A stretch of DNA of 32,000 nucleotides. Origin: Longivirga aurantiaca. Its GTDB lineage: Bacteria > Actinomycetota > Actinomycetes > S36-B12 > CAIYMF01. The notes under the pieces were generated by a model. The model worked only from the letters and a program-made list of their open reading frames with translations, had not been told where the DNA came from and did not search any database. The DNA lies in the NCBI RefSeq assembly GCF_042660085.1, contig NZ_JBHSTI010000008.1, positions 840,001 through 872,000 on the forward strand. The letters are read 5' to 3'. The translations under genes and the position numbers were made by a program. Positions 5,478 to 21,185 of this stretch are shown one piece after another; position 1 is the first letter of the stretch; the number at the start of each line of letters is the position of its first letter.

Positions 5478-7172
5478 TCAGGCGACGACGAGCGCGTCGC
5501 CTCGCGCGTCCAGCACGGTGAGGCCGTACGCCACCGCCCACCGGTGGCCGAGGGCACCTGCGACATCGGCCCGTCCGGGCGTCGACCCCGGCAGCGCGCG
5601 CACCACGAGGTCGAGCAGCTCGGAGTCGCCAGCCGGTCCGCCGACGAGCAGCACGTCCACACCGGCCGCCATGCCGGACGTCGCCCGCGCGATGTTGTCC
5701 CCCACCACGGCGCGCTTGAGGTGCTGGCGCAGCATCCGCCATTCGCCGGGGGCGAGCCGCCGGTGGAACGGCAGAAGACCGGCCGGGCCTGGCACGACGA
5801 GGGATCCGACGGCGTCGGCGGGCACAGCCGTCTCGACGAACCGGCGCTCGCCGTCCTCGCCCACCAGCACGTGCGGCCCCTCGAGCCGCGACGACGCCCC
5901 GCGCTTGGCCCACTCCGCGGCCCCGCGCGGCACGTCGAGCACGTGCGCCACCGCAGCGGTGAGCAGGTCGCCCGCGCCGGCCACGACGCGGGCCTCCTCG
6001 CCGTCAGGCACCACGTCGACGGTGCCGCCACCGAGGTCGATCACGAGAGCGCCCGGACGTGCGGACGGCGTGGTCATCGCACCGGTGCGCGCTGCGTGAG
6101 CCTCCGACGACACCCGGGACACGGGGACGCCGAGCGCGTGCGCCAGGACCGCGGCCGGATCGTCGTCGGGTGACGCGGAGGCCAGCGTGGCAATGGCGAC
6201 GGCCCGGCCGTTGACCGACCGGGGCCGTGCGGCGGCGCTCGCACCGACCGCGTCGAGGTCGACCGCCCAGGCGTCGTCGACGACGTGCTCGACGAGCCGG
6301 CCGCGGGTGGGCAGCCCGACGGCGACCACCGCACCCCGCGGTTGCGGCGCCGCTGCCAGCTCGTGCAGTGACGACCTGTGTCCCCAAGCCGTTCGCGCCC
6401 AGGCGATGTCGGCGTCGTCGGCCGTGCTGCGGGGCATCGGCGACCCGATCCCCACGGCGGCGTCGCGCAGGCCGCGCAGGGACGCCGCCGCGGCCTCGGC
6501 GGCCGCGTGCTCCGCGCTGTCGAGGTCGAGCAGCGCGGCGACCCGCACCGGATCGACGAGCTGGGCGAGGCCGTGCTCGGCCACCTCGACCGCAACCAGC
6601 GAGCAGGCGAGCGCGGCGTCGGTGTCGACCTGGTCGACGACCGGCACAGGGCGCGAGATGCGCCGGCTCACGAGCACCGCCTCGTCGCCGGCGAGCAGCA
6701 CGGCGACGACGTCGGCTCCGGCGGCCTGCCACACGTCGATCCGTTCGGACGTCGCGCGATAGCCGCGCGGATCGCGCGCCACGAGGACCACTGGACCATC
6801 GACCGCACCCGGTTCGTCGGCGAGGTCGACGGGCCGTCCCACGCCGGCTCCGGGAGCGCCCGGCGTGGCACTGCCCGATCCGAGCACCCGCAACCGCCCG
6901 GTGTCCGGCGGGGTTGCAGGCAGGACGAGGGTGTGCGAGTCGACGGGGCGCTGAGGAGCGACGACCACGCGGGTGACCTCGACGCCCGCCTTGCGCGCGA
7001 GCCGACGTACGACGACCGCGGCGGCCGACGCCGCAGCGGCGGAGCCCTTGCGGCCCCGCGTGGGAGTGCGCTCCCACACCAGCGGCATCGGAGGTACGAC
7101 CGAGACGTCGACCAGCACGACCTCGGTGGTGGCGTTGCCGACGTCGACCCCCGCGACGACCGTGCGCGTCAT
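5478..7172 (-). CDS. Diol/glycerol dehydratase reactivase, large (alpha, DdrA/PduG-like) subunit
   Basis: The N-terminus MTRTVVAGVDVGNATTEVVLV matches the (I)AG(I/V)D(I/V)GN(A/S)TTEV actin-like ATPase start of DdrA/PduG. A second nucleotide-binding-like block reads VIDLGGGTVDV. It is the last gene of the dehydratase operon. Confidence 0.8.
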   Translation of the reverse strand: MTRTVVAGVDVGNATTEVVLVDVSVVPPMPLVWERTPTRGRKGSAAAASAAAVVVRRLARKAGVEVTRVVVAPQRPVDSHTLVLPATPPDTGRLRVLGSGSATPGAPGAGVGRPVDLADEPGAVDGPVVLVARDPRGYRATSERIDVWQAAGADVVAVLLAGDEAVLVSRRISRPVPVVDQVDTDAALACSLVAVEVAEHGLAQLVDPVRVAALLDLDSAEHAAAEAAAASLRGLRDAAVGIGSPMPRSTADDADIAWARTAWGHRSSLHELAAAPQPRGAVVAVGLPTRGRLVEHVVDDAWAVDLDAVGASAAARPRSVNGRAVAIATLASASPDDDPAAVLAHALGVPVSRVSSEAHAARTGAMTTPSARPGALVIDLGGGTVDVVPDGEEARVVAGAGDLLTAAVAHVLDVPRGAAEWAKRGASSRLEGPHVLVGEDGERRFVETAVPADAVGSLVVPGPAGLLPFHRRLAPGEWRMLRQHLKRAVVGDNIARATSGMAAGVDVLLVGGPAGDSELLDLVVRALPGSTPGRADVAGALGHRWAVAYGLTVLDARGDALVVA

Positions 7173-7181
7173 CGCACCCGC

Positions 7182-7544
7182 TCAGCCCTCGGCCAGCAGG
7201 CCGCGACGGGCGTACGCGGCCGCGGCCTCACGGACGAGCGCCGCATTGAGGGCCGCGCCGCGCGACTCGAGCGAGGCGGCGATGGTCTCGAGCTGCACGG
7301 TCGTCGAGCGACGTGGCCGCAGCGCGTCGTAGACCGCGAGCACCTCGTCGTCGGGCAGCCCGGTGAGCTCGGCGGCGCGTCGCAGGTTGGCCGCGAGCTG
7401 CGGGTTGGCGTTCGCCTCGGCGACTGTCGCCTGGTGCTCGAGGGTGTCGGGGTGGATGCGGATGTCGTCGATGGACACCAGTCCGTCGCGGACGGCGTCG
7501 AGGGTGATCTCGCTGCTGTCGCGGCCCGAGCGCGCGGTGGTCAT
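7182..7544 (-). CDS. B12-dependent diol/glycerol dehydratase small (gamma, PduE/DhaB3-like) subunit, short form
   Basis: ITLDAVRDGLVSIDDIRIHPDTLEHQATVAE, NLRRAAELTGLPDDEVLAVYDALRPRRST and VREAAAAYARRGLL align with PduE core blocks (ITPETLRLQA, NFERAAELTAVPDDRILEIYNALRPYRST). The ATG overlaps the upstream stop (ATGA). Confidence 0.85.
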   Translation of the reverse strand: MTTARSGRDSSEITLDAVRDGLVSIDDIRIHPDTLEHQATVAEANANPQLAANLRRAAELTGLPDDEVLAVYDALRPRRSTTVQLETIAASLESRGAALNAALVREAAAAYARRGLLAEG

Positions 7545-9781
7545 CGGTGCACCTCCAGCTCTTCCGGTCCGAGTGCAGGGTCGAGGCAGCCCCGTTCGAT
7601 CGCCACGAGCGACACCACCTTGGTGTGGAAGCGCGCCTCGATCGCCATGTCGGAGTAAGGGTTTCGGAGCGGCTCCGGCGTCGAGCCCTTGGCGTGCCGG
7701 CCGGCGTTCGACCCGAGCGCACGGTAGAGCTCGGCGGTCACTGTGGGCGCGACGCTGAAGAGCTCAAGGTTGGCCAGAGGTGCGAGATCGCGACGGTGGA
7801 TGAGCGCCGTGCCCTTGGCCTGCAGCCCGATTGCGATGCCCGATCCCGAGAGCCGCGCCGCAGTGAGGCCGATGAGGCCGAGGTCGACCGTGTCGTTGAT
7901 GCGCACCACCCGACCGCGGCAGCCCTCCTCCTCGAGCCCCGCGAGCAGCTCCTCGAGGACGTCCTCGACCGAGAGGCCCGACAGCGTCGTCCAGATCCGC
8001 CGCCCCGTTGCTGCCGAGACCCCGATGACGACATCGGTGGGGTCCGACCCCGCTGCAGCCGGCCCGCGCACGGTGAACGCGCCGGTGCTGCCCGTCGCCT
8101 GCTCGCGCAGGAGGTCGTCGACCGACCGCTGCTGACGGACGGTGTTGATCTCGTGCAGGCGGGCGCCGGTCGGCCGATAGCCCGTGCCGGGACCGGCGTA
8201 GTCGTTGGGGTCGGTGACCAGCGAGAGCACGTTCATCTGCTCGTCGAAGATCGCGGCGGTCTGCAGGTAGTCGCCGGCCACGCGCGCGTGCAGCATCGCG
8301 AGCAGCCGCTCGGCCTCCTCGGCGTATCCGCACGCGTCGAGCGCGGTCACGACGTCGATCATCGTGACGCCGGACTGCCGGATGACCCGTGACGCCTCCA
8401 GCGGCACCATGAGGTCCGCGGCGGGGACGTCCTTGCTGCCCGCGGCGTCGACCGCCTGCTCGAGCCAGTCGTCGTCGAGGTCGGCGAGCCCGAGCCACCG
8501 GTACACGTCGCGCACGGCCTCGGCGGCACGACGACGCAGGCGCGCGACCTCCGGCTCGGCCGCGGTCCGCAGGCCGCCGTCGACGGTCCAGTCGCGCTGC
8601 ATGACCAGGTAGTCGTCGATGTCCTCGGAGTTCCACTGGCTCGGGCCGAACATGTTGTCGTAGCGCTGGATCGAGCCGAAGCCGCTGCAGATGAAGTCCG
8701 AGCCGCCGATGAAGATCGGGTGCGTCCGCGACGTACGACGGACCTCGGACTCGCTCATGAGCGCGTCGTTGCCGGTGCACGCCTCGAGGTTGCGCAGCAT
8801 CACCATGAGGTTCTCGGCCATGAGGCTCCGCACGCCGCCGGGGACGGAGCCGGCCACCGAGGCGGAGTCGATGCCGCCGTTCTGCACGCCCTGCGCGCCC
8901 ATCGCGCGGGCGAGCGACACGCAGCGCGCCTCGAGGTAGAACATCGAACAGCCCTCGGCGCCGCCCATGAGCGCCTCGGAGCCGCCGCCCGTGGTCACGC
9001 GCATCTTGATGCCGCGGCTCGCGTACGCCGAGGTGAGGAACGCCTTGGACCACGGGGTGTCGTCGCCGTCGACGAAGATCTGCTCGGTGCCGTAGAGCGA
9101 CACGGTCTCGGCGTACGACACGAGGCCCGCCATGCCGAGCTCGAGCTCGAGCGCCTCCTCGACCGAGCACTGCACGAGGACGCCGGGGGAGCCGACCGCA
9201 GCGCCGATCGACACGGCCACGGCGTTGCTGGGGGCGTCGCCGAGCACGGGCACGGTGGTCTCGATCTCGCGGAAGCCGAACGCTGCCGCGGTGGCTGCGT
9301 CGGCGGCGAGCAGCAGCGGGTCGTCGGAGCGGTTGGTGACGTGGGCCTGGTTGCTCGGCGTGCGCCGCGCGCGCATCTTGGTCATCGCGATGACGAGCTC
9401 GGCGGGCGTCAGCTGGGCGAGCACGCGCGCGAGCTTGGCGGGCGTCGCGCCCGCGGCGAGGCGCACCACCTCGGAGCGCGGCACGGCGACGTCCACCAGC
9501 ATGCGGGCGAGGGCGACGTCGTCGAGCGCCATCACCTCTCCTGCTACGGACACGTCGATGCCGTGCGCGGCGATGAACGCGTCGACGACGTCGAAGTCGG
9601 CCTCGGCCCTGCCGTCGAGCTCGACGACGCGCCCGGACGCGTCGACCGCCAGGTTCGGCACGGGGTCGCCGGGGGAGTCGAAGGCCACGAGCCCGAGCGA
9701 GGGCTCCTCGACCGCGAACCCGTCGAGGTTGACCCGCTGGGCGTCCATGAAGCGGAAGCGCCCGATCGGCTGCTCAGCCAC
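7541..9781 (-). CDS. B12-dependent diol/glycerol dehydratase, fused large (alpha, PduC-like) + medium (beta, PduD-like core) subunits
   Basis: GTG at 9779-9781 follows GGAGGGAG. The alpha part carries MTKMRARRTPSNQAHVTN, REIETTV, SYAETVSLYGTE, DGDDTPWSKAFL, YLEARC, GAQGVQNG, RYDNMFGPS and NDYAGPGTGYR. After a ~33-aa linker (about nt 8036-8134) the beta core carries LEELLAGLEEEGCRGRVVR, RLSGSGIAIGLQAKGTALIH and LANLELF. The upstream part of ORF 7541..9925 is Arg/Ser/Thr-rich junk. Confidence 0.9.
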   Translation of the reverse strand: MAEQPIGRFRFMDAQRVNLDGFAVEEPSLGLVAFDSPGDPVPNLAVDASGRVVELDGRAEADFDVVDAFIAAHGIDVSVAGEVMALDDVALARMLVDVAVPRSEVVRLAAGATPAKLARVLAQLTPAELVIAMTKMRARRTPSNQAHVTNRSDDPLLLAADAATAAAFGFREIETTVPVLGDAPSNAVAVSIGAAVGSPGVLVQCSVEEALELELGMAGLVSYAETVSLYGTEQIFVDGDDTPWSKAFLTSAYASRGIKMRVTTGGGSEALMGGAEGCSMFYLEARCVSLARAMGAQGVQNGGIDSASVAGSVPGGVRSLMAENLMVMLRNLEACTGNDALMSESEVRRTSRTHPIFIGGSDFICSGFGSIQRYDNMFGPSQWNSEDIDDYLVMQRDWTVDGGLRTAAEPEVARLRRRAAEAVRDVYRWLGLADLDDDWLEQAVDAAGSKDVPAADLMVPLEASRVIRQSGVTMIDVVTALDACGYAEEAERLLAMLHARVAGDYLQTAAIFDEQMNVLSLVTDPNDYAGPGTGYRPTGARLHEINTVRQQRSVDDLLREQATGSTGAFTVRGPAAAGSDPTDVVIGVSAATGRRIWTTLSGLSVEDVLEELLAGLEEEGCRGRVVRINDTVDLGLIGLTAARLSGSGIAIGLQAKGTALIHRRDLAPLANLELFSVAPTVTAELYRALGSNAGRHAKGSTPEPLRNPYSDMAIEARFHTKVVSLVAIERGCLDPALGPEELEVHR

Positions 9782-10235
9782 GGTCGTCTCCCTCCGCGTC
9801 GTACGAGGCCTCGAGGTGGTCGAAGACCGCCGCGCCGGCTGCCGCCGCCGCGGCGTCCTGCGCAGCCGTCCCGCCGCTGACGCCGACCCCGCCGACGACG
9901 CGGCCGCACGACCACAGCGGGACACCGCCCGCGAAGGCGATGTAGCGGCCGCCGTCCGCCGAGTTCATGCCGACGAGCTCGCCGCCGTCCGTGACCAGGG
10001 GGCCGAGCTCGGCCGTGGCGATGCGGTGCGCCACCGCCGTGTACGCCTTGTCGCGGGCAAGGGTCGGCCCCGCGATCTCGGCGCCGTCCATGCGCTGGAA
10101 GGCGACCAGGTGCCCGCCGCCGTCGACGACCGCCACCGACACGAGCGCGTCGGCGTCCGCCGCCGCGGCGCGGGCCGCCCCGCACATCGCGAGTGCGAGG
10201 TCGAGGTCGATCTCGGTCCTGGTCGCGCGGGCCAT
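9774..10235 (-). CDS. GlcG/HbpS-like heme-binding protein (DUF336; resembles the PduO C-terminal domain)
   Basis: ATG at 10233-10235 follows CCAGGAGC. VSVAVVDGGGHLVAFQRMDGA, ARDKAYTAVA and GGVPLWSCGRVVGGVGVSGGTAAQD are typical DUF336 blocks. It overlaps the dehydratase start by 8 nt (GTGGCTGA). Confidence 0.75.
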   Translation of the reverse strand: MARATRTEIDLDLALAMCGAARAAAADADALVSVAVVDGGGHLVAFQRMDGAEIAGPTLARDKAYTAVAHRIATAELGPLVTDGGELVGMNSADGGRYIAFAGGVPLWSCGRVVGGVGVSGGTAAQDAAAAAAGAAVFDHLEASYDAEGDDRG

Positions 10236-10294: not shown

Positions 10295-11311
10295 TTAGCG
10301 GGAGAACTGGCGCAGGGCGGCGTGGGTGCCGCGCATGGCGACCGCGCCCGCGAGCACGGACTTGGGCACCTTCGCGACCACGGTGTAGTTGGTGTCGACC
10401 ACGTTCGCCACCGGTGTCAGCGCGGTCTGCGACACGAGCTGGTAGGCGTCGAGGATCGACTGGCCCGTGAGCTCGGCGACCCAGAGCACCATCTGCTGGT
10501 GGGCGATGCGGAACGCGTCCTCGAGAGGACGGGCCGAGCCCGTGGTCATGATGAACGTGTCGTTCTCCATCCGCGGCCACGGTGTGGGGATGCCCTTGAC
10601 CAGGTCGAGGATCACGACGGTGTCCATGGCGCACTCGACCGCGACGCCGCAGGTCTCGCCCTCGCCCTGCCGCGCGTGACCGTCGCCCAGGCTGAACAGC
10701 GCGCCCTCGACGTTCACGCCGAGGTAGCAGGTGGTGCCCGCCCGCATCTCGGGGGTGTCCATGTTGCCGCCCCAGTCGCCCGGGGTGAGGGACGAGCGCA
10801 CCTCGCCGAGCGGGGGCGCGACGCCGACCGTGCCGTGCATGGGATCGAGCGGGAGGTCGGCGGTGAACTTCGTGTCGGCCGCGCTGTAGCGGACGAGCCT
10901 GTCCGTGGCGTCGATCTCGTAGATCCAGGTGCGCTCGAGGAGCGCGGGCTGGAGCGTGGCCGTCTGCGGGGTGGAGGTGAGCGATCCGAAGAAGGGGACC
11001 GTGCTGCTGACGCCCCAGGCCTCGCGCGGCTCGATCGAGACGAAGTGGACGGCGAGCGTGTCGCCCGGCTCGGCGCCCTCGACGTAGAAGGGGCCCGTCT
11101 GCGGGTTGAGCAGGCGGGGGTCGCACACCTCGCTCGGGAGGTCCGACGTGGAGCGCACGCGGCCGCCGAAGCAGTCGAAGGTCCAGGTCGACAGCCGGGT
11201 CCGGGGACGGACGGAGGCGACGGGGGCGACGCCGCCGAAGGTGTAGGTCAGGGCGGCGGGGTCGCCGTCGGGGTCGGGAGCCCAGAACAGGTCGGTCAGC
11301 GAGTCGGTCAC
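10295..11311 (-). CDS. Acetamidase/formamidase (FmdA/AmdA) family amidase
   Basis: I prefer the GTG at 11309-11311 after AGGGAGA. NPQTGPFYVEGAEPGDTLAVHFVSIEP resembles the family's TGPI(Y/F)VEGAEPGD block. GNMDTPE and LSLGDGHARQGEGE resemble the metal/active-site region. Confidence 0.75.
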   Translation of the reverse strand: MTDSLTDLFWAPDPDGDPAALTYTFGGVAPVASVRPRTRLSTWTFDCFGGRVRSTSDLPSEVCDPRLLNPQTGPFYVEGAEPGDTLAVHFVSIEPREAWGVSSTVPFFGSLTSTPQTATLQPALLERTWIYEIDATDRLVRYSAADTKFTADLPLDPMHGTVGVAPPLGEVRSSLTPGDWGGNMDTPEMRAGTTCYLGVNVEGALFSLGDGHARQGEGETCGVAVECAMDTVVILDLVKGIPTPWPRMENDTFIMTTGSARPLEDAFRIAHQQMVLWVAELTGQSILDAYQLVSQTALTPVANVVDTNYTVVAKVPKSVLAGAVAMRGTHAALRQFSR

Positions 11312-13329: not shown

Positions 13330-14655
13330 ATGACCGACCAGATCCGGGTCGAGGACGGCGAGACGCCGCTCGACTACGGCTTCTTCTCGTTCGCGTCCAA
13401 GACCGAAATGCTCGAGAAGAGCAAGGAGTTCTGGAACCCGGACAAGACCACGTTCTGGTCCGAGTCGGGCGTCCCCCTGGTCATCGACCGGCGCGAGGAC
13501 TACTTCATCTACGACGTCACCGGCAAGCGCCTCATCGACGTGCACCTCAACGGCGGCACGTACAACCTCGGGCACCGCAACCCCGAGATGGTGCAGGCCA
13601 TCACCGTGGCGATGCAGCACTTCGACATCGGCAACCACCACTTCCCGTCGCTCGCGCGCACGGCGCTGGCCGAGGCCCTCATCGCCACCGCGCCGAGGAA
13701 CCTGTCGAAGGTCGTCTACGCGTCCGGCGGCGGCGAGGCGATCGACATCGCGATCAAGACCGCGCGGCACGCCACGCAGAAGCGCAGGATCCTCTCGATC
13801 GTGAAGGCCTACCACGGCCACACCGGCCTCGCCGTCGGCACGGGCGACGACCGCTTCTCCAAGCTCTTCCTCTCGGACCAGCCCGAGGACTTCCCGCACG
13901 TCCCGTTCAACGACCTCCAGGCCATGGAGGACGTGCTCAAGGGGCGAGACATCGCCGCGGTGATCATGGAGACGATCCCGGCGACGTACGGCTTCCCGCT
14001 GCCGGACCCGGGCTATCTCGAGGCCGTCAAGCGCCTGTGCGAGAAGTACGACGCGCTCTACATCGCCGACGAGGTGCAGACCGGGCTCATGCGCACCGGC
14101 GAGCTCTGGGGCATCACCAAGCACGGCATCGAGCCGGACATCCTCGTGACGGGCAAGGGCATCTCGGGCGGCATGTACCCGATCGCGGCCGTGCTCGTGA
14201 GCGAGCGGGCGGCCGGCTGGCTCGACGAGGACGGCTTCGGCCACATCTCGACCTTCGGCGGCGCCGAGCTCGGCTGCATCGCCGCGCTCAAGGCGCTCGA
14301 GATCTGCAACCGCCCCGAGACGCGGTCGATGGTCCACTACATCTCGGACTTCATCGGGCGCGGCCTGCGCGACATCCAGGCGACCTACCCCGACTGGTTC
14401 GTCGGCATCCGCCAGAACGGCGTGGTGATGGGCCTGGAGTTCGCGCACCCGCAGGGGGCCAAGGCGGTCATGAAGAGGCTCTACGAGAACGGCGTGTGGG
14501 CGATCTTCTCCACGCTCGACCCCCGGGTGCTGCAGTACAAGCCCGGGATCCTGCTCAAGCCCGAGGTGGCCGAGGAGCTGCTCGACCGCACCGAGGTGGG
14601 CATCGCCAGGGCCCGCGAGGACGTGCTCGGCGCGGGCAGGAAGGCGTGGCGCTGA
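13330..14655 (+). CDS. Class-III aminotransferase-fold PLP enzyme; in this context probably an amino-alcohol O-phosphate phospho-lyase
   Basis: ATG at 13330 follows GGAGG. SGGGEAIDIAIK, YHGHTG, LYIADEVQTGLMRTGELWG and DILVTGKGISGG (PLP lysine) are class-III blocks. The phospho-lyase role is inferred from RMM/AAUM-type loci, not from sequence. Confidence 0.85.
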   Translation: MTDQIRVEDGETPLDYGFFSFASKTEMLEKSKEFWNPDKTTFWSESGVPLVIDRREDYFIYDVTGKRLIDVHLNGGTYNLGHRNPEMVQAITVAMQHFDIGNHHFPSLARTALAEALIATAPRNLSKVVYASGGGEAIDIAIKTARHATQKRRILSIVKAYHGHTGLAVGTGDDRFSKLFLSDQPEDFPHVPFNDLQAMEDVLKGRDIAAVIMETIPATYGFPLPDPGYLEAVKRLCEKYDALYIADEVQTGLMRTGELWGITKHGIEPDILVTGKGISGGMYPIAAVLVSERAAGWLDEDGFGHISTFGGAELGCIAALKALEICNRPETRSMVHYISDFIGRGLRDIQATYPDWFVGIRQNGVVMGLEFAHPQGAKAVMKRLYENGVWAIFSTLDPRVLQYKPGILLKPEVAEELLDRTEVGIARAREDVLGAGRKAWR

Positions 14656-16226: not shown

Positions 16227-16829
16227 GTGGCCGAGCTCCGTTCGTTCATCTTCCTCGACCGTCTGCAGCCGCAGACCATGAGCTACATGGGCTCGACGGT
16301 CAAGGGCGCCCTGCCGCGCGCCGACATGGCCTCGCTGATCATCGAGGTGGCGCCCGGTCTCGACATCGAGCCGCTGACCGACGTCGCGCTGAAGTACGCC
16401 GAGGTGCAGGCGGGCATCCTCGTGGTCGAGCGGCAGTACGGCTACCTCGAGGTGCACGGCCCCACCGGCCAGGTGAAGGCCGCGGGCGACGCCGTCCTGC
16501 AGGCCCTCGGCGCGGACCCCGACCAGGCGACGAGGCCGCAGGTGCTCGCCTCGCGGATCGTGACGATGCTCGACCGCCAGCACGCGTTCCTCATCAACCG
16601 CAACAAGGCGGGATCGATGGCGCTGCCGGGCGAGTCGCTGTTCGTGCTCGAGATGGCGCCGGCGTCGTACGCGATCCTCGCCACCAACGAGGCCGAGAAG
16701 GCCGCGGCGATCAAGGTCGTGGACTTCCGCATGATCGGTGCGACGGGCCGGGTGTACCTGTCGGGCAAGGAGAGCGACGTCCGCCAGGCGGCCGATGCCG
16801 CCGAGGCTGCCCTGCGGGCGGCACGATGA
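16227..16829 (+). CDS. BMC shell protein, tandem BMC-domain type (BMC-T), paralog 1
   Basis: GTG start. Two BMC-like halves are visible: [43 protein letters not shown], and ESLFVLEMAPASYAILATNEAEKAAAIKVVDFRMIGATGRVYLSGKESDVRQAADAAEAAL. The latter aligns with the PduA-type fold. Confidence 0.8.
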   Translation: MAELRSFIFLDRLQPQTMSYMGSTVKGALPRADMASLIIEVAPGLDIEPLTDVALKYAEVQAGILVVERQYGYLEVHGPTGQVKAAGDAVLQALGADPDQATRPQVLASRIVTMLDRQHAFLINRNKAGSMALPGESLFVLEMAPASYAILATNEAEKAAAIKVVDFRMIGATGRVYLSGKESDVRQAADAAEAALRAAR

Positions 16830-17266
16830 GCAGTCTCGACGGGACCGAGCGGGACCTCCTGCGCCAGATGGTGCGCCAGGTCCTGCTGGAGGTCGTGCCC
16901 CAGACGATGGCCGCGGCATCCGCGTCCGCGAGCGCGTCCGACGAGAGCGTCGTGCTGACCAACGACGCCGAGCTCGAGGCGTTCGTGCGCCGGGTCGCGG
17001 TGCTCTGCGAGGACCCGGCCGAGCGCGAGGCGCTGCGCAGCGGGAGCCGTCGCTTCCGTCTGGCCGGCCACCCGGCGCCGTCCACATCCGCTCCCGCCCC
17101 CGCAGCCGCGGTGGTCCGGGTCGACAAGGGGGCCGTCACCGAGCGGCACGTGCGCGAGGCGGCGGCTGCGGGCGCCGACCTCGTCCTGGGACGAGGCGCC
17201 GTCCTGACTCCGCTCGCGCGCGACCGCGCGCGGGCTGCGGGCGTCCGGATCACGAAGGAGAAGTGA
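16826..17266 (+). CDS. BMC-associated hypothetical protein with N-terminal encapsulation-peptide-like amphipathic helix
   Basis: ATGA overlaps at both ends. The N-terminus TERDLLRQMVRQVLLEVV resembles the PduD/PduP targeting helices. Ala/Ser (AAASASASAS) and Pro/Ala/Ser linkers follow. The C-terminal module reads GAVTERHVREAAAAGADLVLGRGAVLTPLARDRARAAGVRI. Confidence 0.6.
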   Translation: MSSLDGTERDLLRQMVRQVLLEVVPQTMAAASASASASDESVVLTNDAELEAFVRRVAVLCEDPAEREALRSGSRRFRLAGHPAPSTSAPAPAAAVVRVDKGAVTERHVREAAAAGADLVLGRGAVLTPLARDRARAAGVRITKEK

Positions 17267-17520
17267 TGCTGCGCGGACGGGTGATCGGGAACGTGTGGGC
17301 CAGCCGGAGGCTGGACGAGATCCCTTCAGGCGCGTTCCTGGAGGTGCAGATCGAGGGTGGCGCGACGCTCATCGCGTTCGACGTCCTCGGCAGCGGGATC
17401 GGGGAGTCCGTGCTCGTGTCCACGGGGTCGGTCGCGGCCTCATGGTTCCCGGGCGCCGCGCCCCCGATCGACGCGCTCATCATCGGCTCCATCGACGAGA
17501 CAGCAGGCGCGCAGCAGTAG
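17266..17520 (+). CDS. BMC vertex pentamer protein (BMC-P; EutN/CcmL/PduN family)
   Basis: MLRGRVIGNVWASRRLDEIPSGAFLEV...AFDVLGSGIGESVLVSTGSVAA...IDALIIGSIDE matches the EutN/CcmL pattern. It is 84 aa long. Confidence 0.85.
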   Translation: MLRGRVIGNVWASRRLDEIPSGAFLEVQIEGGATLIAFDVLGSGIGESVLVSTGSVAASWFPGAAPPIDALIIGSIDETAGAQQ

Positions 17521-17558: not shown

Positions 17559-17577
17559 TCAACGAGGAGGAACATCC

Positions 17578-17862
17578 ATGTCGAACAACGCGATCGGTCT
17601 CATCGAGACCAAGGGCTACGTCGCCGCGCTCGCCGCCGCGGACGCGATGGTGAAGGCCGCCAACGTCGTCATCGTCAGCCGCGACTCGGTCGGCAGCGGC
17701 CTCGTGGCCGTGACGATCGTCGGCGACGTCGGCGCCGTGAAGGCGGCCACCGAGGCCGGCGCCGAGACGGCGTCGTCGGTCGGCGAGCTCGTGTCGGTGC
17801 ACGTCATCCCGCGCCCGCACGTCGAGCTCAGCAAGCACTTCACGGTCAGCGGCGACGCGTGA
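17578..17862 (+). CDS. BMC shell hexamer protein (BMC-H; PduA/EutM-like)
   Basis: [33 protein letters not shown]...[25 protein letters not shown]...VHVIPRPH is the canonical Pfam BMC-domain signature. Confidence 0.95.
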
Positions 17863-18509
17863 GCTCGGCCCCGATCGCGGGGCCGGAGCTGCGTGTCTAC
17901 CTGCTGATCGAGGACCTGCAGCAGCAGTTCGCGGCGTACCTCGGTACGCCGACGCGAGCACGCGGCTACCCGCCGTACGCCGGGCAGCACGCGCTCATCA
18001 TCGAGGTCGCACCAGGCCTCGCCATCGAGCGCGTGACGCACCAGGCGCTGACGTCGGTGCCCGACATCGAGCCGGGCATCCTGTTCGTCGAGCGTCAGTT
18101 CGGCGTGCTCGAGGTGCACGCGTCGTCGCTCGACGACGTGCTGCGCGCGGGCGAGGCGATCCTCGACGGCCTGGGCGCGGAGCCGGCCCACCAGCTGGCG
18201 CCGCGCGTGCTGTACCACGACGTCATCGAGGACGTCACCGACATGCACGCGGTCATCATCAACCGCAACCGGCAGGCCTCGATGCTGCTGCCGGGGCAGT
18301 CGCTGCTCGTGTACGAGATGACGCCGGCGCTGTTCGCGGCCGTCGCGGCCAACGAGGCCGAGAAGGTCGCGCCGGAGAACACCCTCGTCGACGTGCAGAT
18401 GATCGGCGCCGCCGGTCGCGTGTACATCGGCGGCACCACCGAGGGCGTCATGAAGGCGCGCGACGCGATCACCCGGGTCCTCGGGTCGATCGAGGGCCGC
18501 GGCCACTAA
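17859..18509 (+). CDS. BMC shell protein, tandem BMC-domain type (BMC-T), paralog 2
   Basis: The GTG overlaps the BMC-H stop (GTGA). It aligns by eye with 16227-16829: ELR..., [12 protein letters not shown](F/V)VERQ(F/Y)G.LEVH, (I/L)INRN, NEAEK, MIGA(A/T)GRVY. Confidence 0.8.
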
Positions 18510-18548
18510 CCTCCAGCACCACGGGCGTTCCAGCCGCACGACGAGTCG

Positions 18549-19541
18549 ATGGGAGAGCGAGTGAGCACGGAGCTCGACACCGAGCACCTCGAGGTCTTCG
18601 CGCGCGGCGCGGCGGCCGAGCACGGGATGCCCGACGCGGAGATCACGCTGCTCAACGTGTCGGAGAACGCGACCTACCGCGTCGACTCGGCCGACGGCCG
18701 TCGGCTGGTCCTCCGCGTGCACCGCACCGGCTACCACACGCGCGAGGCGATCGAGAGCGAGCTCGCCTGGATCAGGGCGCTGCGCGCCGACGGTGTGGTG
18801 CACACGGCCCCCGTGATCGCGACCCCGGACGGCCGCGACATCGTCGTCGTTCGCCACCCCGGCGGCGAGGAGCGCAACGTCGTCGCGTTCGAGTGGATGA
18901 ACGGCACCGAGCCGCCGGAGGACAGGCTCGTCGACGACTTCCGCGAGCTCGGGGCCATCGCCGCGAGGCTGCACCGGCATGCCCGGCAGTGGGTGCGCCC
19001 GCCCGGGTTCACCCGGTTCCGCTGGGACTTCGACACCTCTCTCGGGGCGAACGGGCACTGGGGGCGCTGGCAGGACGGCATGGGCATGGGCCCGGCCGAG
19101 CTCGACGTGCTCGGCCGTGCCGCCGACCTCGTGCAGCGGCGGCTCGCCGCCTTCGGCACGGGTCCGGACCGGTTCGGCCTCGTGCACGCGGACATGCGCC
19201 TCGCCAACCTGCTCGTCGACGGCAGCAGCGTGTGCGTGATCGACTTCGACGACTGCGGCCTGTCCTGGTACCTCTACGACCTGGGCTCGTCGCTGTCGTT
19301 CATCGAGCACCTGCCGGTGGTGCCCGAGCTGGTCGACTCGTGGATCACCGGCTACCGCACCGAGGGCACGCTGTCGCAGGAGGAGGTCGACGAGCTGCCG
19401 ACCTTCATCATGCTGCGCCGGCTCCTGCTGGTGGCCTGGATCGGCTCGCACTCCGCCGTCCCCGAGGCTCAGCGGATGGGCCCGGAGTTCACCACCGTCT
19501 CCTGCGACCTCGCCGAGAAGTACCTCGTCCAGCACGGCTGA
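18549..19541 (+). CDS. Aminoglycoside-phosphotransferase (APH/ChoK) family kinase; in this context probably an amino-alcohol (1-amino-2-propanol) kinase
   Basis: The kinase catalytic loop [15 protein letters not shown] and the metal-binding VIDFDDCG are present. GTG at 18561 is an alternative start. Substrate is inferred from locus type. Confidence 0.8.
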
Positions 19542-19557
19542 CCCGCCCGGAGGATCC

Positions 19558-20346
19558 ATGTTCAGCTCCATCGCCGGCCGCTCCGTCATCGTCACCGGTG
19601 GCACCAAGGGGATCGGCAAGGGCATCGCCCGCGTCTTCGCCCGCGCCGGCGCCAACGTCCTCATCACCGGCCGGAACGAGGCCGACGCAGCCGCCTGCGC
19701 GGAGGAGCTCACGGCGCTGGGCGGCGGCACGGTCACGTACGTGCTCGGCGACGTCGCGTCCGCCGCCTCGTGCGCGGAGATGGCGGCCACGGCGGTCGAG
19801 CGCAACGGCGGCATCGACGTGCTCTGCGCGAACGCCGGCATCTTCCCCGACTCCAAGCTCGCCACCATGACCGAGGCCGACATGGATCTCGTCTTCGGCA
19901 CCAACATCAAGGGCACGCTGCTGTCGGTGCAGGCGTGCATCCCCGCGCTCACGGCGTCGGGCCGCGGCCGGGTGATCCTCACCTCGTCGATCACGGGGCC
20001 GATCACCGGCTACCCGGGCTGGTCGCACTACGGAGCCAGCAAGGCCGCGCAGCTGGGCTTCATGCGCACGGCCGCGATCGAGCTCGCACCGCGCAAGATC
20101 ACCGTGAACGCCGTGCTTCCCGGCAACGTCGCGACCGAGGGGCTTGCCGAGCTCGGTGCCGACTACCGCGCCTCGATGGAGGCGACGATCCCCATGAAGG
20201 CGCTCGGCGAGGTCGACGACATCGGCAACGCCGCGCTGTTCTTCGCCACCGACGAGGCGGGCTACATCACCGGCCAGGCGCTCGCGGTCGACGGCGGCCA
20301 GGTGCTGCCCGAGTCGCTCGCGGCGCTGGAGGCCGCGGCCGACTAG
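19558..20346 (+). CDS. Short-chain dehydrogenase/reductase (SDR), FabG-like
   Basis: ATG follows [21 protein letters not shown] (TGxxxGxG), NAGI and the catalytic YGASKAA (YxxxK) are present. Confidence 0.9.
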
Positions 20347-20387
20347 AGGCCGTACCGTGGTCGAACCGACGCCGCCCAGGGGGTGAG

Positions 20388-21185
20388 ATGACCGAGACCG
20401 ACGCCCTGCTGGGGCCCACGGCCGACGAGGCGCGTCGCAACATCGTCCGGCTCATCACCTCCGGTGCCCTGCGGCCGGGCCAGCGGCTCGGCGCCGAGCG
20501 CGACCTCGCGGTGCAGCTCGGCGTCAGCAGGTCCACCCTGCGCGCGGCGCTCGCGTCGCTCGAGCAGGACGGGCTGGTGCGCCGGGTGCCGGGCCGCGGA
20601 GGCGGCACGTTCGTCGCGCGGGAGAAGATCGACCGCGACCTCTCGCGCATCGTGGGCGTACCGGCCCTGCTGCGCGACCAGGGCTACACCGCGGGGTCGC
20701 GGGTGGTCAGCGGCGCGGTCGTCCCGCCTGACGCGGACGCCGCGGCTGCGCTCGCACTGCCGCCGGACTCGTTCGTCGTCGACCTCGTCCGCATCCGCCT
20801 CGCGGACGGCAGCCCGATCTCGCTGGAGCACGCGCGGTTCCCCGCCGAGCGGTTCCCGGGGCTGCTCGAGCGTCCGCTGGGCGGCTCGCTGTACCAGCTG
20901 CTCGAGAAGGACTACGGCGTCGGCCCGCATCAGGCCGTCGAGAGGCTCGAGGTGGTGTCGGCCTCGGACGACGAGGCCCGGGTGCTCGGCGTCGCACCCG
21001 GTGCGCCGCTCATCTCGATCACCCGCACCACCGTGGACGCGGACGGGGAGCCGTTCGAGTACTCGCACGACCTCTTCCGGGCCGACCGCACCCGCATCAC
21101 CGTGCGGACGTCGGGCGCGCCGGCCGGGGCCGGGCAGGACGCCACCCGCGGCCGCCTCGTCGAGGTCCGCGAGAACATGGCCTGA
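20388..21185 (+). CDS. GntR-family transcriptional regulator, HutC subfamily (wHTH + UTRA effector domain)
   Basis: The GntR wHTH reads LRPGQRLGAERDLAVQLGVSRSTLRAALASLEQDGLVRRVPGRGGGTFVA. The C-terminal half (ISLEHARFPAERFPGL, YSHDLFRADRTRI) has a UTRA-like pattern. Confidence 0.85.
   Translation: MTETDALLGPTADEARRNIVRLITSGALRPGQRLGAERDLAVQLGVSRSTLRAALASLEQDGLVRRVPGRGGGTFVAREKIDRDLSRIVGVPALLRDQGYTAGSRVVSGAVVPPDADAAAALALPPDSFVVDLVRIRLADGSPISLEHARFPAERFPGLLERPLGGSLYQLLEKDYGVGPHQAVERLEVVSASDDEARVLGVAPGAPLISITRTTVDADGEPFEYSHDLFRADRTRITVRTSGAPAGAGQDATRGRLVEVRENMA

What the first reader, a model, noticed from the sequence alone, without database searches (positions are those of the whole stretch)
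5478..21185. 15.7-kb bacterial-microcompartment metabolosome island between ddl and the DUF3515/thiL block
Directly visible are a full shell set (BMC-H, BMC-P, two BMC-T) embedded among enzymes. On the plus strand: class-III aminotransferase-fold enzyme, acylating aldehyde dehydrogenase, APH-family kinase, SDR and a HutC-type GntR regulator. On the minus strand: APC permease, acetamidase/formamidase and a B12-type diol dehydratase operon. The kinase, PLP enzyme, AldDH, SDR, permease and GntR core matches what I know as the RMM/AAUM locus type. In that pathway aminoacetone is reduced to 1-amino-2-propanol, phosphorylated, cleaved by a phospho-lyase to propionaldehyde, and oxidised to propionyl-CoA. 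Here the core is physically joined to a 1,2-diol dehydratase that would also yield propionaldehyde, and to an amidase. That suggests one compartment fed by two or three converging routes. No phosphotransacylase, alcohol dehydrogenase or corrinoid adenosyltransferase is encoded in the island. The flanking genes (ddl; DUF3515-like, AsnC-like, thiL) are normally close neighbours in actinobacteria, as I recall for Mycobacterium, so the block looks like an insertion. However, it has no integrase, tRNA, flanking repeats or obvious composition shift.
Basis: partly seen in the sequence, partly recalled or inferred. Interest (0 to 1): 0.85.

Follow-up and report, generated by a model that had tools for sequence, protein, structure and literature searches.

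The report
Aminopropanol microcompartment island with B12 dehydratase
This is a real, inserted gene island for a known protein-shelled organelle (the RMM/AAUM aminoacetone–aminopropanol type). Its pairing with a vitamin-B12 diol dehydratase was catalogued in 2014, but that partnership proves far more widespread and conserved than the current catalogue says.

Summary
Positions 5478-21185 hold 17 tightly packed genes.

- **Plus strand:** an RMM/AAUM core. It has a class-III PLP enzyme, an acylating AldDH with a C-terminal encapsulation peptide, BMC-H, BMC-P, two BMC-T, a small uncharacterised protein, aminopropanol kinase, SDR and a HutC-type GntR.
- **Minus strand:** APC permease, FmdA/AmdA amidase, a PduO-C/HbpS-like protein, a fused alpha-beta plus gamma B12 dehydratase, and reactivase alpha.

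The insertion reading holds: a relative (L082) has ddl directly next to DUF3515.

The novelty claim fails. RMM core plus an opposite-strand diol dehydratase is Axen 2014's "RMM2/PDU2". Sutter 2021 later called the dehydratase "unlikely to be an important part".

My data contradict that dismissal:
- 30 of 39 informative species-level loci carry the dehydratase, in three arrangements.
- It co-diverges with the core (rho 0.79).
- The same fused subfamily sits with SDR, kinase and class-III enzymes in shell-less Rhizobiales operons, and inside a Rhodobacterales RMM2 operon.

All 240 sampled fused enzymes have Asp at Ser301, and none has encapsulation peptides.

Best reading: a co-inherited, shell-independent dehydratase gives a second route to propionaldehyde. 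Its substrate is unproven.

The parts
5478..7172 (-). Diol dehydratase reactivase alpha subunit (DdrA/PduG-like), 564 aa. No beta subunit gene follows it.
   Evidence: PF08841 at 126 bits plus PF18427. TIGR04491 scores 153 bits, below its equivalog cutoff of 400. A DdrB-like query found nothing.
7182..7544 (-). B12 dehydratase small (gamma) subunit, 120 aa. It lacks the N-terminal extension seen in PduE.
   Evidence: PF02287 at 125 bits. N-terminus compared.
7541..9781 (-). Fused large + medium (alpha-beta) subunit of an AdoCbl-type diol/glycerol dehydratase, 746 aa. Catalytic and Ca residues are kept, but Ser301 is Asp and Gln336 is Ala.
   Evidence: PF02286 at 765 bits plus PF02288. NF011979 scores 833 bits against a cutoff of 788. 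Aligned to PDB 9VII/1IWP/1DIO. Residue tables.
9774..10235 (-). HbpS-like / PduO C-terminal-domain-like protein, 153 aa. Its stop overlaps the dehydratase start.
   Evidence: PF03928 at 110 bits. Present in 27 of 32 loci of the same arrangement.
10295..11311 (-). Acetamidase/formamidase-family amidase, 338 aa.
   Evidence: PF03069 at 84 bits. PDB 5UBU, E = 3e-63. Present in 34 of 60 loci with enough left flank, always beside the permease.
11406..13019 (-). APC-family amino acid/amine permease, 537 aa. First gene of the minus-strand unit.
   Evidence: PF13520 and PF00324. Start refined.
13020..13329 (.). Divergent intergenic region. It holds a candidate HutC-type operator: direct repeats of YGGTMT at 13263-13292. 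A second conserved element lies around 13118-13155.
   Evidence: The paired half-sites occur only once in the 32 kb window. The motif recurs upstream of the AT gene in most related loci.
13330..14655 (+). Class-III aminotransferase-fold PLP enzyme, 441 aa. It is the proposed 1-amino-2-propanol-phosphate phospho-lyase.
   Evidence: PF00202 at 240 bits. 580 relatives in genomes. Phospho-lyase activity is inferred, not tested.
14655..16223 (+). Acylating (CoA-dependent) aldehyde dehydrogenase, 522 aa. A C-terminal encapsulation peptide lies at about 16158-16220 (DNLRDEIRRLIIEELNAIVRG).
   Evidence: PF00171. NF010378 at 445 bits and TIGR02518 at 390 bits. The helix is conserved after a variable linker in all 36 aligned loci.
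16227..16829 (+). BMC-T (double-stacking type), orthologue of MSM0275.
   Evidence: PDB 5L39, E = 1.9e-98.
16826..17266 (+). Uncharacterised 146-aa RMM protein. Its ATG overlaps the BMC-T stop. It has an N-terminal encapsulation-peptide-like helix and a conserved C-terminal motif GAVTE...AVLTPLARDRAR.
   Evidence: No Pfam, NCBIfam or PDB match. Conserved in about 48 loci. Start codon read.
17266..17520 (+). BMC-P (pentamer vertex protein).
   Evidence: PF03319 at 61.6 bits.
17578..17862 (+). BMC-H (hexamer shell protein).
   Evidence: PF00936 at 89 bits.
17859..18509 (+). Second BMC-T, orthologue of MSM0271.
   Evidence: PDB 5SUH, E = 1.3e-97.
18549..19541 (+). APH-family kinase, orthologue of M. 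smegmatis (S)-1-amino-2-propanol kinase.
   Evidence: PF01636. PDB 6EF6, E = 6e-92.
19558..20346 (+). SDR, orthologue of M. smegmatis 1-amino-2-propanol dehydrogenase / aminoacetone reductase.
   Evidence: PF13561 and PF00106. PDB 3PK0, 6CI8 and 6CI9, E about 1e-99 to 1e-104.
20388..21185 (+). GntR-family regulator of the HutC subfamily (winged helix-turn-helix + UTRA).
   Evidence: PF00392 plus PF07702 at 141 bits.

Best explanation
This is a 15.7-kb catabolic island of the RMM/AAUM microcompartment type (RMM2/PDU2 in the sense of Axen 2014). It is inserted between ddl and DUF3515 in a high-GC actinobacterium.

**Plus-strand operon.** It encodes the organelle and its pathway. The SDR reduces aminoacetone to 1-amino-2-propanol. 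The APH kinase phosphorylates it. The class-III PLP enzyme eliminates phosphate and ammonia to give propionaldehyde. The acylating AldDH, targeted by its C-terminal peptide into a shell of one BMC-H, one BMC-P and two BMC-T, makes propionyl-CoA. A HutC-type GntR probably represses from direct-repeat half-sites in the shared divergent promoter region.

**Minus-strand unit.** It starts with the RMM permease and runs with short or overlapping gaps through an amidase, a PduO-C-like protein, a fused alpha-beta + gamma AdoCbl dehydratase and its reactivase alpha.

**Role of the dehydratase.** It is a long-standing, co-inherited partner of the pathway, not a chance neighbour. It belongs to a fused, Asp301 subfamily that works without shells in other bacteria and carries no encapsulation peptide. 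Most likely it gives a second entry to the same C3 aldehyde (a vicinal diol such as 1,2-propanediol to propionaldehyde). That product is then handled by the AldDH/BMC and propionyl-CoA metabolism.

**Shown:** gene content, orthology, synteny, linkage statistics, active-site residues, lack of targeting extensions, the empty site in a relative.

**Inferred:** all enzyme activities, the dehydratase substrate, co-transcription, regulation and encapsulation status.
For: **Core identity.** Shell, kinase and SDR are orthologues of the M. smegmatis RMM proteins. The AldDH is of the acylating type and has a conserved C-terminal amphipathic helix. The aminoacetone-to-propionyl-CoA proposal is cited in PMC8156839.

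**Linkage of the dehydratase.**
- Of the 80 best loci among 580 relatives of the PLP enzyme, 39 have enough flank to judge. Thirty of these carry the fused dehydratase within 10 kb, or 31 counting the frame-broken L053.
- It appears in three arrangements: upstream and divergent (18), downstream on the minus strand (5), and downstream on the plus strand (7).
- Pairwise identities of dehydratase and PLP enzyme correlate at Spearman 0.79, higher than PLP enzyme against AldDH at 0.54.

**Cross-phylum recurrence.**
- Shell-less operons ABC-DH-SU-SDR-APH-classIII AT(-GntR) occur in Agrobacterium, Shinella and Starkeya. A rearranged version occurs in Bradyrhizobium.
- In Pseudohalocynthiibacter, an RMM2 operon carries the DH on the same strand as the shell genes.

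**C3 product.**
- In Chelativorans, DH-SU-SDR-AldDH lies beside methylmalonyl-CoA mutase and propionyl-CoA carboxylase.
- Paracoccus yeei (RMM2) grows on 1,2-propanediol (PMC8156839).

**Operon structure.** Gaps on the minus strand are 94, 59, -8, -4 and 9 nt, and no terminator-like site was found.

**Operator.** The YGGTMT repeat pair is unique in the window and conserved across loci.

**Insertion.** L082 is an empty site. L003-L005 are occupied at the same site.
Against: - The dehydratase subunits have no N- or C-terminal extension in any of about 45 loci. Nothing therefore shows that its aldehyde is made inside the shell.
- Ser301 and Gln336 line the C3 pocket. Mutating them to Ala raises the Km for 1,2-propanediol 40-fold (PMC7674605). 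Here they are invariantly Asp and Ala, and the loops at 299-303, 336-340 and 364-369 are remodelled. The substrate may therefore not be 1,2-propanediol.
- No reactivase beta, adenosyltransferase, PTAC or alcohol dehydrogenase is encoded.
- Eight or nine of the 39 informative loci lack the dehydratase nearby.
- The census covers only the 80 relatives closest to this window, and most are MAGs.
- There are no expression, activity or imaging data.
Confidence: 0.55

Rival explanations
1. Bifunctional organelle. The dehydratase is packaged in the same shell. Propionaldehyde from both 1,2-propanediol and aminopropanol phosphate is made and consumed inside one compartment.
For: - Both routes end in the same aldehyde.
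- The linkage is tight and conserved.
- In Pseudohalocynthiibacter the dehydratase lies in the same-strand operon as the shell genes.
- How the PLP enzyme itself is targeted is also not evident from sequence, so unknown targeting modes must exist.
- The small EP-bearing protein could act as an adaptor.
Against: - No encapsulation-peptide-like extension is present on alpha-beta, gamma, reactivase, HbpS-like protein or amidase.
- BMC-linked dehydratases have the same termini and lengths as shell-less relatives.
- The subfamily functions without shells in Rhizobiales.
Confidence: 0.2
2. Linear pathway on a nitrogen-bearing diol. A C-N hydrolase frees an amine. The Asp301 dehydratase then acts on an amino-diol (or other diol with an H-bond-donating C3 substituent). 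SDR, kinase and phospho-lyase process the product, so the dehydratase sits upstream of the RMM pathway rather than parallel to it.
For: - Asp replaces Ser301 exactly where the C3 hydroxyl of glycerol binds. This holds in 240 of 240 fused enzymes.
- An SDR is adjacent in 10 of 11 non-actinobacterial contexts. APH and class-III AT are adjacent in 5 to 6 of these 11.
- Gene order DH-SDR-kinase-AT is seen in Agrobacterium, Shinella and Starkeya.
- C-N hydrolases of six unrelated families lie next to these dehydratases: FmdA/AmdA here, isochorismatase-like, amidase-signature, arginase family, S58 fused to the small subunit, and beta-lactamase fold.
Against: - By the canonical mechanism, 3-amino-1,2-propanediol would give 3-aminopropanal. 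That is not a vicinal amino alcohol precursor, so no simple substrate links all the steps.
- Operons with only DH-SDR(-AldDH), beside propionyl-CoA carboxylase and methylmalonyl-CoA mutase, fit a plain diol-to-propionate route.
- Asp301 could be a structural partner of another clade-specific change such as N369R.
- I found no literature support.
Confidence: 0.17
3. Incidental neighbour (the reading in Sutter et al. 2021). The dehydratase genes merely lie near the RMM locus and play no part in its function.
For: - Supplementary Data 2 of PMC8217296 states that PDU enzymes were seen in only 4 genomes and are unlikely to be important.
- The dehydratase is on the opposite strand and has no targeting peptide.
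- Eight or nine of 39 loci lack it.
Against: - Thirty of 39 loci from different species carry it, in three arrangements.
- It co-diverges with the core, rho 0.79.
- It recurs with the same enzyme families in Alphaproteobacteria, with and without shells.
- It shares a tightly packed unit with the RMM permease.
Confidence: 0.05

Closest known systems
RMM1 / AAUM1 microcompartment locus of Mycobacterium smegmatis MC2 155 (Mallette & Kimber; Sutter 2021 catalogue)
   Same: The shell set is the same: one BMC-H, one BMC-P and two distinct BMC-T, orthologous to MSM0275 and MSM0271. Kinase (6EF6), SDR (6CI8/6CI9), acylating AldDH, class-III PLP enzyme, HutC-type GntR and a divergent APC permease are also shared.
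   Different: This island adds, behind the permease, an amidase, an HbpS-like protein, a fused B12 dehydratase and reactivase alpha. The alpha/beta hydrolases described for RMM1 are not in the island.
RMM2/PDU2 of Axen et al. 2014 (Mycobacterium gilvum, M. vanbaalenii, M. chubuense)
   Same: It is defined as the RMM core, syntenic from permease to regulator, plus diol dehydratase homologues on the opposite strand and "several additional genes". That is exactly this architecture.
   Different: The lineage differs: a high-GC freshwater or soil actinobacterium, nearest to a MAG labelled Nanopelagicales. I could not fetch the mycobacterial loci. It is therefore untested whether they share the amidase, the HbpS-like gene, the fusion and Asp301.
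RMM2 / AAUM2 of Sutter et al. 2021 (Proteobacteria), e.g. the Pseudohalocynthiibacter aestuariivivens locus L168
   Same: AldDH, BMC-T, small protein, BMC-P, BMC-H, BMC-T, SDR, APH kinase, and a fused Asp301 dehydratase with its small subunit.
   Different: The gene order differs and everything is on one strand. An ABC transporter replaces the APC permease. An isochorismatase-like hydrolase replaces the FmdA/AmdA amidase. Position 336 is Gln.
PDU microcompartment of Salmonella enterica (PduCDE, PduGH, PduL, PduP, PduQ, PduO, PduS)
   Same: A B12-dependent dehydratase homologous to PduCDE, a reactivase alpha homologous to PduG, an acylating AldDH, and propionaldehyde as the expected intermediate.
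   Different: - No N-terminal encapsulation peptides on the beta and gamma parts.
- The alpha and beta subunits are fused.
- Ser301 is Asp and Gln336 is Ala.
- No PduH, PduL, PduQ, PduO adenosyltransferase domain or PduS.
- The shell is of RMM type.
- The AldDH peptide is C-terminal.
Klebsiella diol/glycerol dehydratases PddABC / DhaB123 (PDB 1DIO, 1IWP) and engineered alpha-beta fusions (9VII)
   Same: About 50% identity. All Ca-binding and catalytic residues are kept. Like glycerol dehydratase, the beta and gamma parts are short. Natural alpha-beta fusions in M. smegmatis and Mesorhizobium are mentioned in PMC7674605.
   Different: The C3-pocket loops are remodelled, with invariant Asp301 in all 240 sampled fused sequences. 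No reactivase beta was found.
Shell-less Rhizobiales operons (Agrobacterium cucumeris pO132a, Shinella zoogloeoides, Starkeya koreensis)
   Same: A fused Asp301 dehydratase with small subunit, plus SDR, APH-family phosphotransferase, class-III aminotransferase-fold enzyme and a GntR regulator.
   Different: No shell genes, AldDH or reactivase. Import is by a sugar-type ABC transporter. The kinase and PLP enzyme are only 23-27% identical to those here, so they are the same families but not orthologues.

Membership tests
RMM1/AAUM1 microcompartment locus | Shell complement of one BMC-H, one BMC-P and two different BMC-T of the double-stacking type | tested here: met
   PF00936 and PF03319. 5L39, E = 2e-98, and 5SUH, E = 1e-97.
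RMM1/AAUM1 microcompartment locus | APH-family 1-amino-2-propanol kinase and SDR aminopropanol dehydrogenase orthologous to the characterised M. smegmatis enzymes | tested here: met
   6EF6, E = 6e-92. 3PK0, 6CI8 and 6CI9, E about 1e-99 or better.
RMM1/AAUM1 microcompartment locus | Acylating aldehyde dehydrogenase carrying an encapsulation peptide | tested here: met
   AdhE-N/EutE-type models score 390-445 bits. A conserved C-terminal amphipathic helix follows a variable linker.
RMM1/AAUM1 microcompartment locus | Class-III aminotransferase-fold enzyme acting as a phospho-lyase on aminopropanol phosphate | not testable with these tools
   The fold family is present. Kinase + class-III fusions in NCBIfam (NF004800, NF004799) support the pairing. 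Activity is not shown.
RMM1/AAUM1 microcompartment locus | HutC-type GntR regulator and divergent amino-acid-type permease | tested here: met
   PF00392 + PF07702, and PF13520.
RMM1/AAUM1 microcompartment locus | Forms polyhedral bodies and is induced by aminopropanol or aminoacetone | not testable with these tools
   Needs culture, RNA-seq and electron microscopy.
RMM2/PDU2 (Axen 2014) | RMM core syntenic from permease to regulator, plus diol dehydratase homologues on the opposite strand | tested here: met
   Gene map against the definition in PMC4207490.
PDU-type microcompartment | N-terminal encapsulation peptides on the medium and small dehydratase subunits | tested here: not met
   The beta part begins at the glycerol-dehydratase-like core. 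The gamma subunit is 120 aa without an extension. No upstream coding extension exists in about 45 loci.
PDU-type microcompartment | PduL phosphotransacylase, PduQ alcohol dehydrogenase, and PduO/PduS cofactor recycling | tested here: not met
   None of the 17 products matches these families. Only a PduO C-terminal-domain homologue (PF03928) is present.
AdoCbl-dependent diol/glycerol dehydratase (PddABC/PduCDE/DhaB) | Alpha, beta and gamma subunits | tested here: met
   PF02286 + PF02288 (fused) and PF02287. NF011979 scores 833 bits, above its cutoff of 788.
AdoCbl-dependent diol/glycerol dehydratase (PddABC/PduCDE/DhaB) | Ca-binding and catalytic residues Gln141, His143, Glu170, Glu221, Gln296, Asp335 and Ser362 | tested here: met
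   All are invariant in the window and in 36 aligned loci.
AdoCbl-dependent diol/glycerol dehydratase (PddABC/PduCDE/DhaB) | C3-pocket residues Ser301 and Gln336 of the characterised enzymes | tested here: not met
   Asp and Ala in the window, in 44 linked loci and in the 120 closest homologues. Asp301 is also present in 120 alphaproteobacterial fused enzymes.
AdoCbl-dependent diol/glycerol dehydratase (PddABC/PduCDE/DhaB) | Two-subunit reactivase (DdrAB/PduGH) | tested here: inconclusive
   The alpha subunit is present at Pfam level but far below the NCBIfam equivalog cutoff. No beta gene is adjacent. A DdrB-like query from L162 found none, which is a weak test.

The most novel reading that the evidence does not exclude
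The fused alpha-beta, Asp301 B12 dehydratases are a distinct, uncharacterised enzyme subfamily found in Actinobacteria and Alphaproteobacteria. Their physiological substrate would not be plain 1,2-propanediol or glycerol. It would be a diol carrying an amine or another H-bond-donating group at C3, released by the neighbouring C-N hydrolases. This would make the dehydratase the first step of an extended amino-alcohol pathway (dehydratase, SDR, kinase, phospho-lyase), which some lineages have enclosed in the RMM shell.
Probability: 0.2. Interest if true: 0.75.

Novelty: new member of a known kind. Interest (0 to 1): 0.45.

Why it matters
For the finding as written, it matters little. The locus type has been in the BMC taxonomy since 2014.

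The follow-up has some value for specialists:
- The dehydratase-RMM partnership, dismissed in the 2021 catalogue, is the rule in this actinobacterial clade and recurs across phyla.
- That gives independent comparative support for propionaldehyde as the organelle's aldehyde.
- The partner enzyme lacks encapsulation peptides and belongs to a fused, Asp301 subfamily that nobody appears to have characterised.
- This poses a concrete, testable question: how does a metabolosome use an aldehyde-producing enzyme that seems not to be targeted to it, and what is that enzyme's true substrate?
- Naturally fused dehydratases with pocket substitutions at Ser301 and Gln336, positions where Ala substitutions are known to lessen glycerol inactivation, may also interest people engineering 3-HPA or 1,3-propanediol production.

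Tried and rejected
- **Source of the window.** An exact look-up of the window's dehydratase found no record.
- **Key papers.** Mallette & Kimber 2017/2018 are not held in the library. The kinase/phospho-lyase pathway therefore rests on secondary citations and my own knowledge.
- **Plasmid collection.** It has no actinobacterial relative of the dehydratase. It did give the Agrobacterium and Shinella operons.
- **Representative-library search.** It returned mostly fragments. It was useful only for showing that positions 301/336 vary across the family.
- **Cluster look-up.** It added few names.
- **The 146-aa protein.** No match in Pfam, NCBIfam, PDB single-sequence search or PDB profile search. 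I did not predict its structure, because the alignment contains locus-derived sequences that the tool would refuse.
- **Reactivase beta.** A tblastn with a DdrB-like protein from L162 found nothing.
- **Mobility signs.** No tRNA, Rfam family or riboswitch, promoter- or terminator-like site of note, junction repeat or GC3 shift.
- **Literature.** Searches for Ser301/Gln336 variants and for a dehydratase/phospho-lyase link found only general reviews. One search term was rejected by the tool.
- **Rejected idea: the dehydratase acts directly on 1-amino-2-propanol.** The substrate would lack the second Ca-coordinating oxygen, and Asp301 lies at the C3 side, not the O1 side.
- **Idea kept only as speculation: the dehydratase makes aminoacetone from 3-amino-1,2-propanediol.** This needs a reversed substrate orientation.

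Full report
**1. What is in the window**

The window is 72% G+C, so I chose reading frames by third-position GC and then annotated them.

Between ddl (4357-5469) and DUF3515 (21252-~21707, minus strand) lie 17 genes with almost no spacer.

*Minus strand*:
- Reactivase alpha, 5478-7172.
- Dehydratase small subunit, 7182-7544.
- Fused large + medium subunit, 7541-9781.
- An HbpS/PduO-C-like protein, 9774-10235.
- An FmdA/AmdA-family amidase, 10295-11311.
- An APC permease, 11406-13019.

*Plus strand*, after a 310-nt divergent region:
- Class-III aminotransferase-fold enzyme, 13330-14655.
- Acylating AldDH, 14655-16223.
- BMC-T, 16227-16829.
- A 146-aa protein with no family, 16826-17266. Its ATG overlaps the BMC-T stop codon.
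- BMC-P, 17266-17520.
- BMC-H, 17578-17862.
- A second BMC-T, 17859-18509.
- APH kinase, 18549-19541.
- SDR, 19558-20346.
- GntR + UTRA regulator, 20388-21185.

Several products are clear orthologues of M. smegmatis RMM proteins with solved structures:

| Window gene | PDB entry | E-value |
|---|---|---|
| BMC-T (first) | 5L39 (MSM0275) | 2e-98 |
| BMC-T (second) | 5SUH (MSM0271) | 1e-97 |
| Kinase | 6EF6 | 6e-92 |
| SDR | 3PK0, 6CI8, 6CI9 | ~1e-99 or better |

None of the 17 products is a phosphotransacylase, iron alcohol dehydrogenase or adenosyltransferase.

**2. Is it an insertion?**

Yes.
- A scan of metagenome contigs with ddl found L082 (ddl 82% identical). It carries plsC, gpsA, the Cys/Met PLP gene and ddl, then DUF3515, thiL, the S4-domain gene and the DAK-like gene directly. 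Only about 97 nt, forming a perfect palindrome, lie between ddl and DUF3515.
- About 35 more distant loci show the same adjacency.
- L003-L005 (ddl 75% identical) have an RMM + dehydratase island at the same site, but without the amidase and HbpS-like genes.
- In the window the junctions are very tight. The ddl stop is at 5469 and the reactivase stop at 5478. The GntR stop is at 21185 and the DUF3515 stop at 21252.
- There is no tRNA, integrase, Rfam element, junction repeat or GC3 shift. The acquisition is therefore old, or came from a donor of similar composition.
- In other genomes the island sits in other contexts.

**3. Is it new?**

No, not as a locus type.
- Axen et al. 2014 distinguished RMM1 from RMM2 by [quoted passage not shown]. 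They noted that these genes lie on the opposite strand, and offered two readings: either the dehydratase is not used, or the BMC is bifunctional (PMC4207490). Their examples were M. gilvum, M. vanbaalenii and M. chubuense.
- Sutter et al. 2021 re-used the name RMM2 for a mainly proteobacterial type. [quoted passage not shown]
- By shell content and gene order, the window's core is RMM1/AAUM1 in the 2021 scheme and RMM2/PDU2 in the 2014 scheme.

**4. How firmly is the dehydratase tied to the RMM core?**

I scanned one genome per species with the PLP enzyme. There were 580 relatives, and the best 80 (75-98% identical) were kept. Most are freshwater or soil actinobacterial MAGs, with some cultured Nocardioides, Pseudonocardia, Sphaerisporangium and Pimelobacter. 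I mapped all island proteins onto them.

- 39 loci have at least 8 kb to the left and 10 kb to the right. Thirty of them carry the fused dehydratase, or 31 counting L053, where it is broken across frames in a long-read assembly.
- It appears in three arrangements: as in the window (18), downstream of GntR on the minus strand (5), and downstream of GntR on the plus strand (7).
- Every copy is an alpha-beta fusion.
- Pairwise identities of dehydratase and PLP enzyme correlate at Spearman 0.79. That is better than PLP enzyme against AldDH, at 0.54. The pairs are not independent, so the p-values mean little, but the trend indicates long co-inheritance.
- In the window, the minus-strand genes follow the RMM permease with gaps of 94, 59, -8, -4 and 9 nt, and no terminator-like site was found. 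They may therefore be one transcript starting in the shared divergent region.
- That region holds the only paired YGGTMT half-sites in the 32 kb (13263-13292). The motif recurs upstream of the PLP gene in most loci and resembles HutC-family half-sites (my knowledge).

**5. What kind of dehydratase is it?**

- It aligns over its whole length with Klebsiella glycerol and diol dehydratases.
- It keeps Gln141, His143, Glu170, Glu221, Thr222, Gln296, Asp335, Ser362 and Phe374. The numbering was checked on a recalled K. oxytoca sequence and is consistent with the printed alignment.
- Ser301 is Asp and Gln336 is Ala. The surrounding loops (299-303, 336-340, 364-369) carry clade-fixed changes.
- The Asp/Ala pair is invariant in 44 linked loci and in the 120 closest database homologues.
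- According to PMC7674605, Ser301 receives the C3 hydroxyl of glycerol in the inactivation-prone pose. S301A/Q336A raises the Km for 1,2-propanediol from 0.06 to 2.4 mM and changes glycerol inactivation.
- Across the wider family, positions 301/336 vary: S/Q canonical, S/A, D/A, D/T and others.
- A second search seeded with the Agrobacterium enzyme returned 120 alphaproteobacterial fused enzymes. All have Asp301.
- Fusion plus Asp301 therefore marks one subfamily, in 240 of 240 sequences sampled. Natural fusions were noted before, in M. smegmatis and Mesorhizobium. I found no mention of the pocket change.

**6. Is it targeted to the shell?**

Nothing in the sequence says so.
- The alpha part starts where PduC starts. 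The beta part starts at the glycerol-dehydratase-like core, without the PduD peptide. The gamma subunit is 120 aa without the PduE extension.
- In about 45 loci, the in-frame sequence upstream of both genes is non-coding-like, and start codons lie within 10 residues of the conserved core.
- BMC-linked and shell-less members have the same termini.
- By contrast, the AldDH ends in a conserved helix, ELR[DE]EIRRL[IV][IV]EEL..I[IV][KR]G, after a variable linker. The 146-aa protein begins with a similar helix.

**7. Contexts outside Actinobacteria**

| Locus | Organism | Gene order / neighbours |
|---|---|---|
| L165, L166, L171 | Agrobacterium cucumeris pO132a, Shinella zoogloeoides, Starkeya koreensis | ABC transporter, DH, small subunit, ABC ATPase, SDR, APH phosphotransferase, class-III enzyme, GntR (downstream in L165/L166; upstream, FCD-type, in L171). 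No shell. |
| L169 | Bradyrhizobium jicamae | ABC, amidase-signature enzyme, GntR, APH, class-III enzyme, DH, small subunit, SDR |
| L168 | Pseudohalocynthiibacter aestuariivivens | AldDH, BMC-T, small protein, BMC-P, BMC-H, BMC-T, ABC, SDR, APH, isochorismatase-like hydrolase, DH, small subunit, all on one strand |
| L167 | Mesorhizobium | ABC, DH, small subunit, SDR |
| L172 | Chelativorans | As L167, followed by an AldDH, next to methylmalonyl-CoA mutase and propionyl-CoA carboxylase |
| L161, L162, L163, L170 | Other contexts | Arginase-family enzymes (L161, L163), an amine oxidase (L161), a PLP decarboxylase and an S58 peptidase fused to the small subunit (L162), or a beta-lactamase-fold hydrolase (L170) |

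- An SDR is adjacent in 10 of these 11 contexts.
- The Agrobacterium kinase and PLP enzyme are only 23-27% identical to the window's. This is recurrence of enzyme families, not orthology.

**8. Weighing the models**

- **Chance neighbour.** The linkage data make this very unlikely.
- **Convergent model.** Here a diol is converted to propionaldehyde, which joins the aminopropanol route at the AldDH. The Chelativorans context beside propionyl-CoA metabolism and the report that Paracoccus yeei (RMM2) grows on 1,2-propanediol favour it.
- **Packaged or not.** The lack of targeting peptides, and the shell-independent life of this subfamily, argue that the enzyme is not a classical lumen enzyme. Unknown targeting modes cannot be excluded, however, since the PLP enzyme also shows no obvious peptide.
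- **Upstream role on a substituted diol.** The invariant Asp301, the repeated neighbouring C-N hydrolases of unrelated families, and the DH-SDR-kinase-PLP gene order keep this possibility alive. I could not write a chemically simple route that uses all the steps.
- **The amidase.** It tracks the permease rather than the dehydratase. Its substrate is unknown.

**9. Verdict**

- The feature is real and correctly described.
- The locus is a new member of a kind catalogued in 2014.
- What adds interest comes from the follow-up: the breadth and age of the dehydratase partnership, which contradicts the 2021 catalogue's remark, and the recognition of a fused, Asp301, peptide-less dehydratase subfamily with an unproven substrate.

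Noticed in passing
window 16826-17266 (+): A 146-aa protein sits between BMC-T and BMC-P, and its ATG overlaps the BMC-T stop. It has an N-terminal encapsulation-peptide-like helix (ERDLLRQMVRQVLLEVV), a middle helix and a strongly conserved C-terminal motif (GAVTE..V..A..G..LVLG..AVLTPLARDRAR..GV). It has no Pfam, NCBIfam or PDB match, yet is conserved in about 48 loci and in the Rhodobacterales RMM2 locus (143 aa in L168).
   Followed up: partly
window 13263-13292 and about 13118-13155: Direct repeats of YGGTMT spaced 11-13 nt lie upstream of the PLP gene. This is the only such pair in the 32 kb, and it is conserved in most related loci. A second conserved element (ACCGAATCAAG...TTTTGG) lies nearer the permease. 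Both are candidate HutC-type GntR operators.
   Followed up: partly
L165, L166, L171 and L169 (Agrobacterium, Shinella, Starkeya, Bradyrhizobium): These are shell-less operons. They combine a fused Asp301 B12 dehydratase with an SDR, an APH-family kinase, a class-III aminotransferase-fold enzyme and a GntR regulator, behind an ABC importer.
   Followed up: partly
window 10295-11311; L168, L169, L161, L163, L162, L170: C-N hydrolases of six unrelated families lie next to Asp301 dehydratases in different lineages. They are FmdA/AmdA, isochorismatase-like, amidase-signature, arginase family, S58 peptidase fused to the small subunit, and beta-lactamase fold.
   Followed up: no
L060 (Sphaerisporangium viridialbum chromosome), 11443-12939: This is an RMM-like operon in which all five genes of the shell region (BMC-T, small protein, BMC-P, BMC-H, BMC-T) are missing, along with the C-terminal peptide region of the AldDH. 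The PLP enzyme, AldDH, kinase, SDR and GntR remain. The related Sphaerisporangium loci L058 and L067 retain shell genes (a full set in L067).
   Followed up: partly
window 5478 (downstream of the reactivase alpha gene): No reactivase beta subunit (PduH/DdrB) gene is present in the island. A DdrB-like query found none in the 80 related loci either. The HbpS/PduO-C-like gene is translationally coupled to the dehydratase instead.
   Followed up: partly
L082 7110-7207: The empty ddl/DUF3515 site in the closest island-free relative is a perfect long palindrome (CCCCGATCTGGTAGTCGTTTCGCGCGC...GCGCGCGAAACGACTACCAGATCG). It is probably a bidirectional terminator. The island replaces exactly this spacer.
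   Followed up: partly
L053 5029-7269: The dehydratase gene is split over several frames. This is either a pseudogene or long-read assembly errors.
   Followed up: no
window 18549-19541 (NCBIfam hits): The kinase also matches NCBIfam models NF004800 and NF004799. Their lengths (972 and 1015 positions) and the name 'aminotransferase' suggest they are roughly 1000-aa kinase + class-III aminotransferase fusions. That would be a Rosetta-stone hint for kinase/phospho-lyase coupling.
   Followed up: no
window 28835-29221 (+): A Fic/DOC-family gene lies just upstream of rsmD and coaD in an otherwise housekeeping block (recG, an alpha/beta hydrolase, rsmD, coaD, YceD).
   Followed up: no
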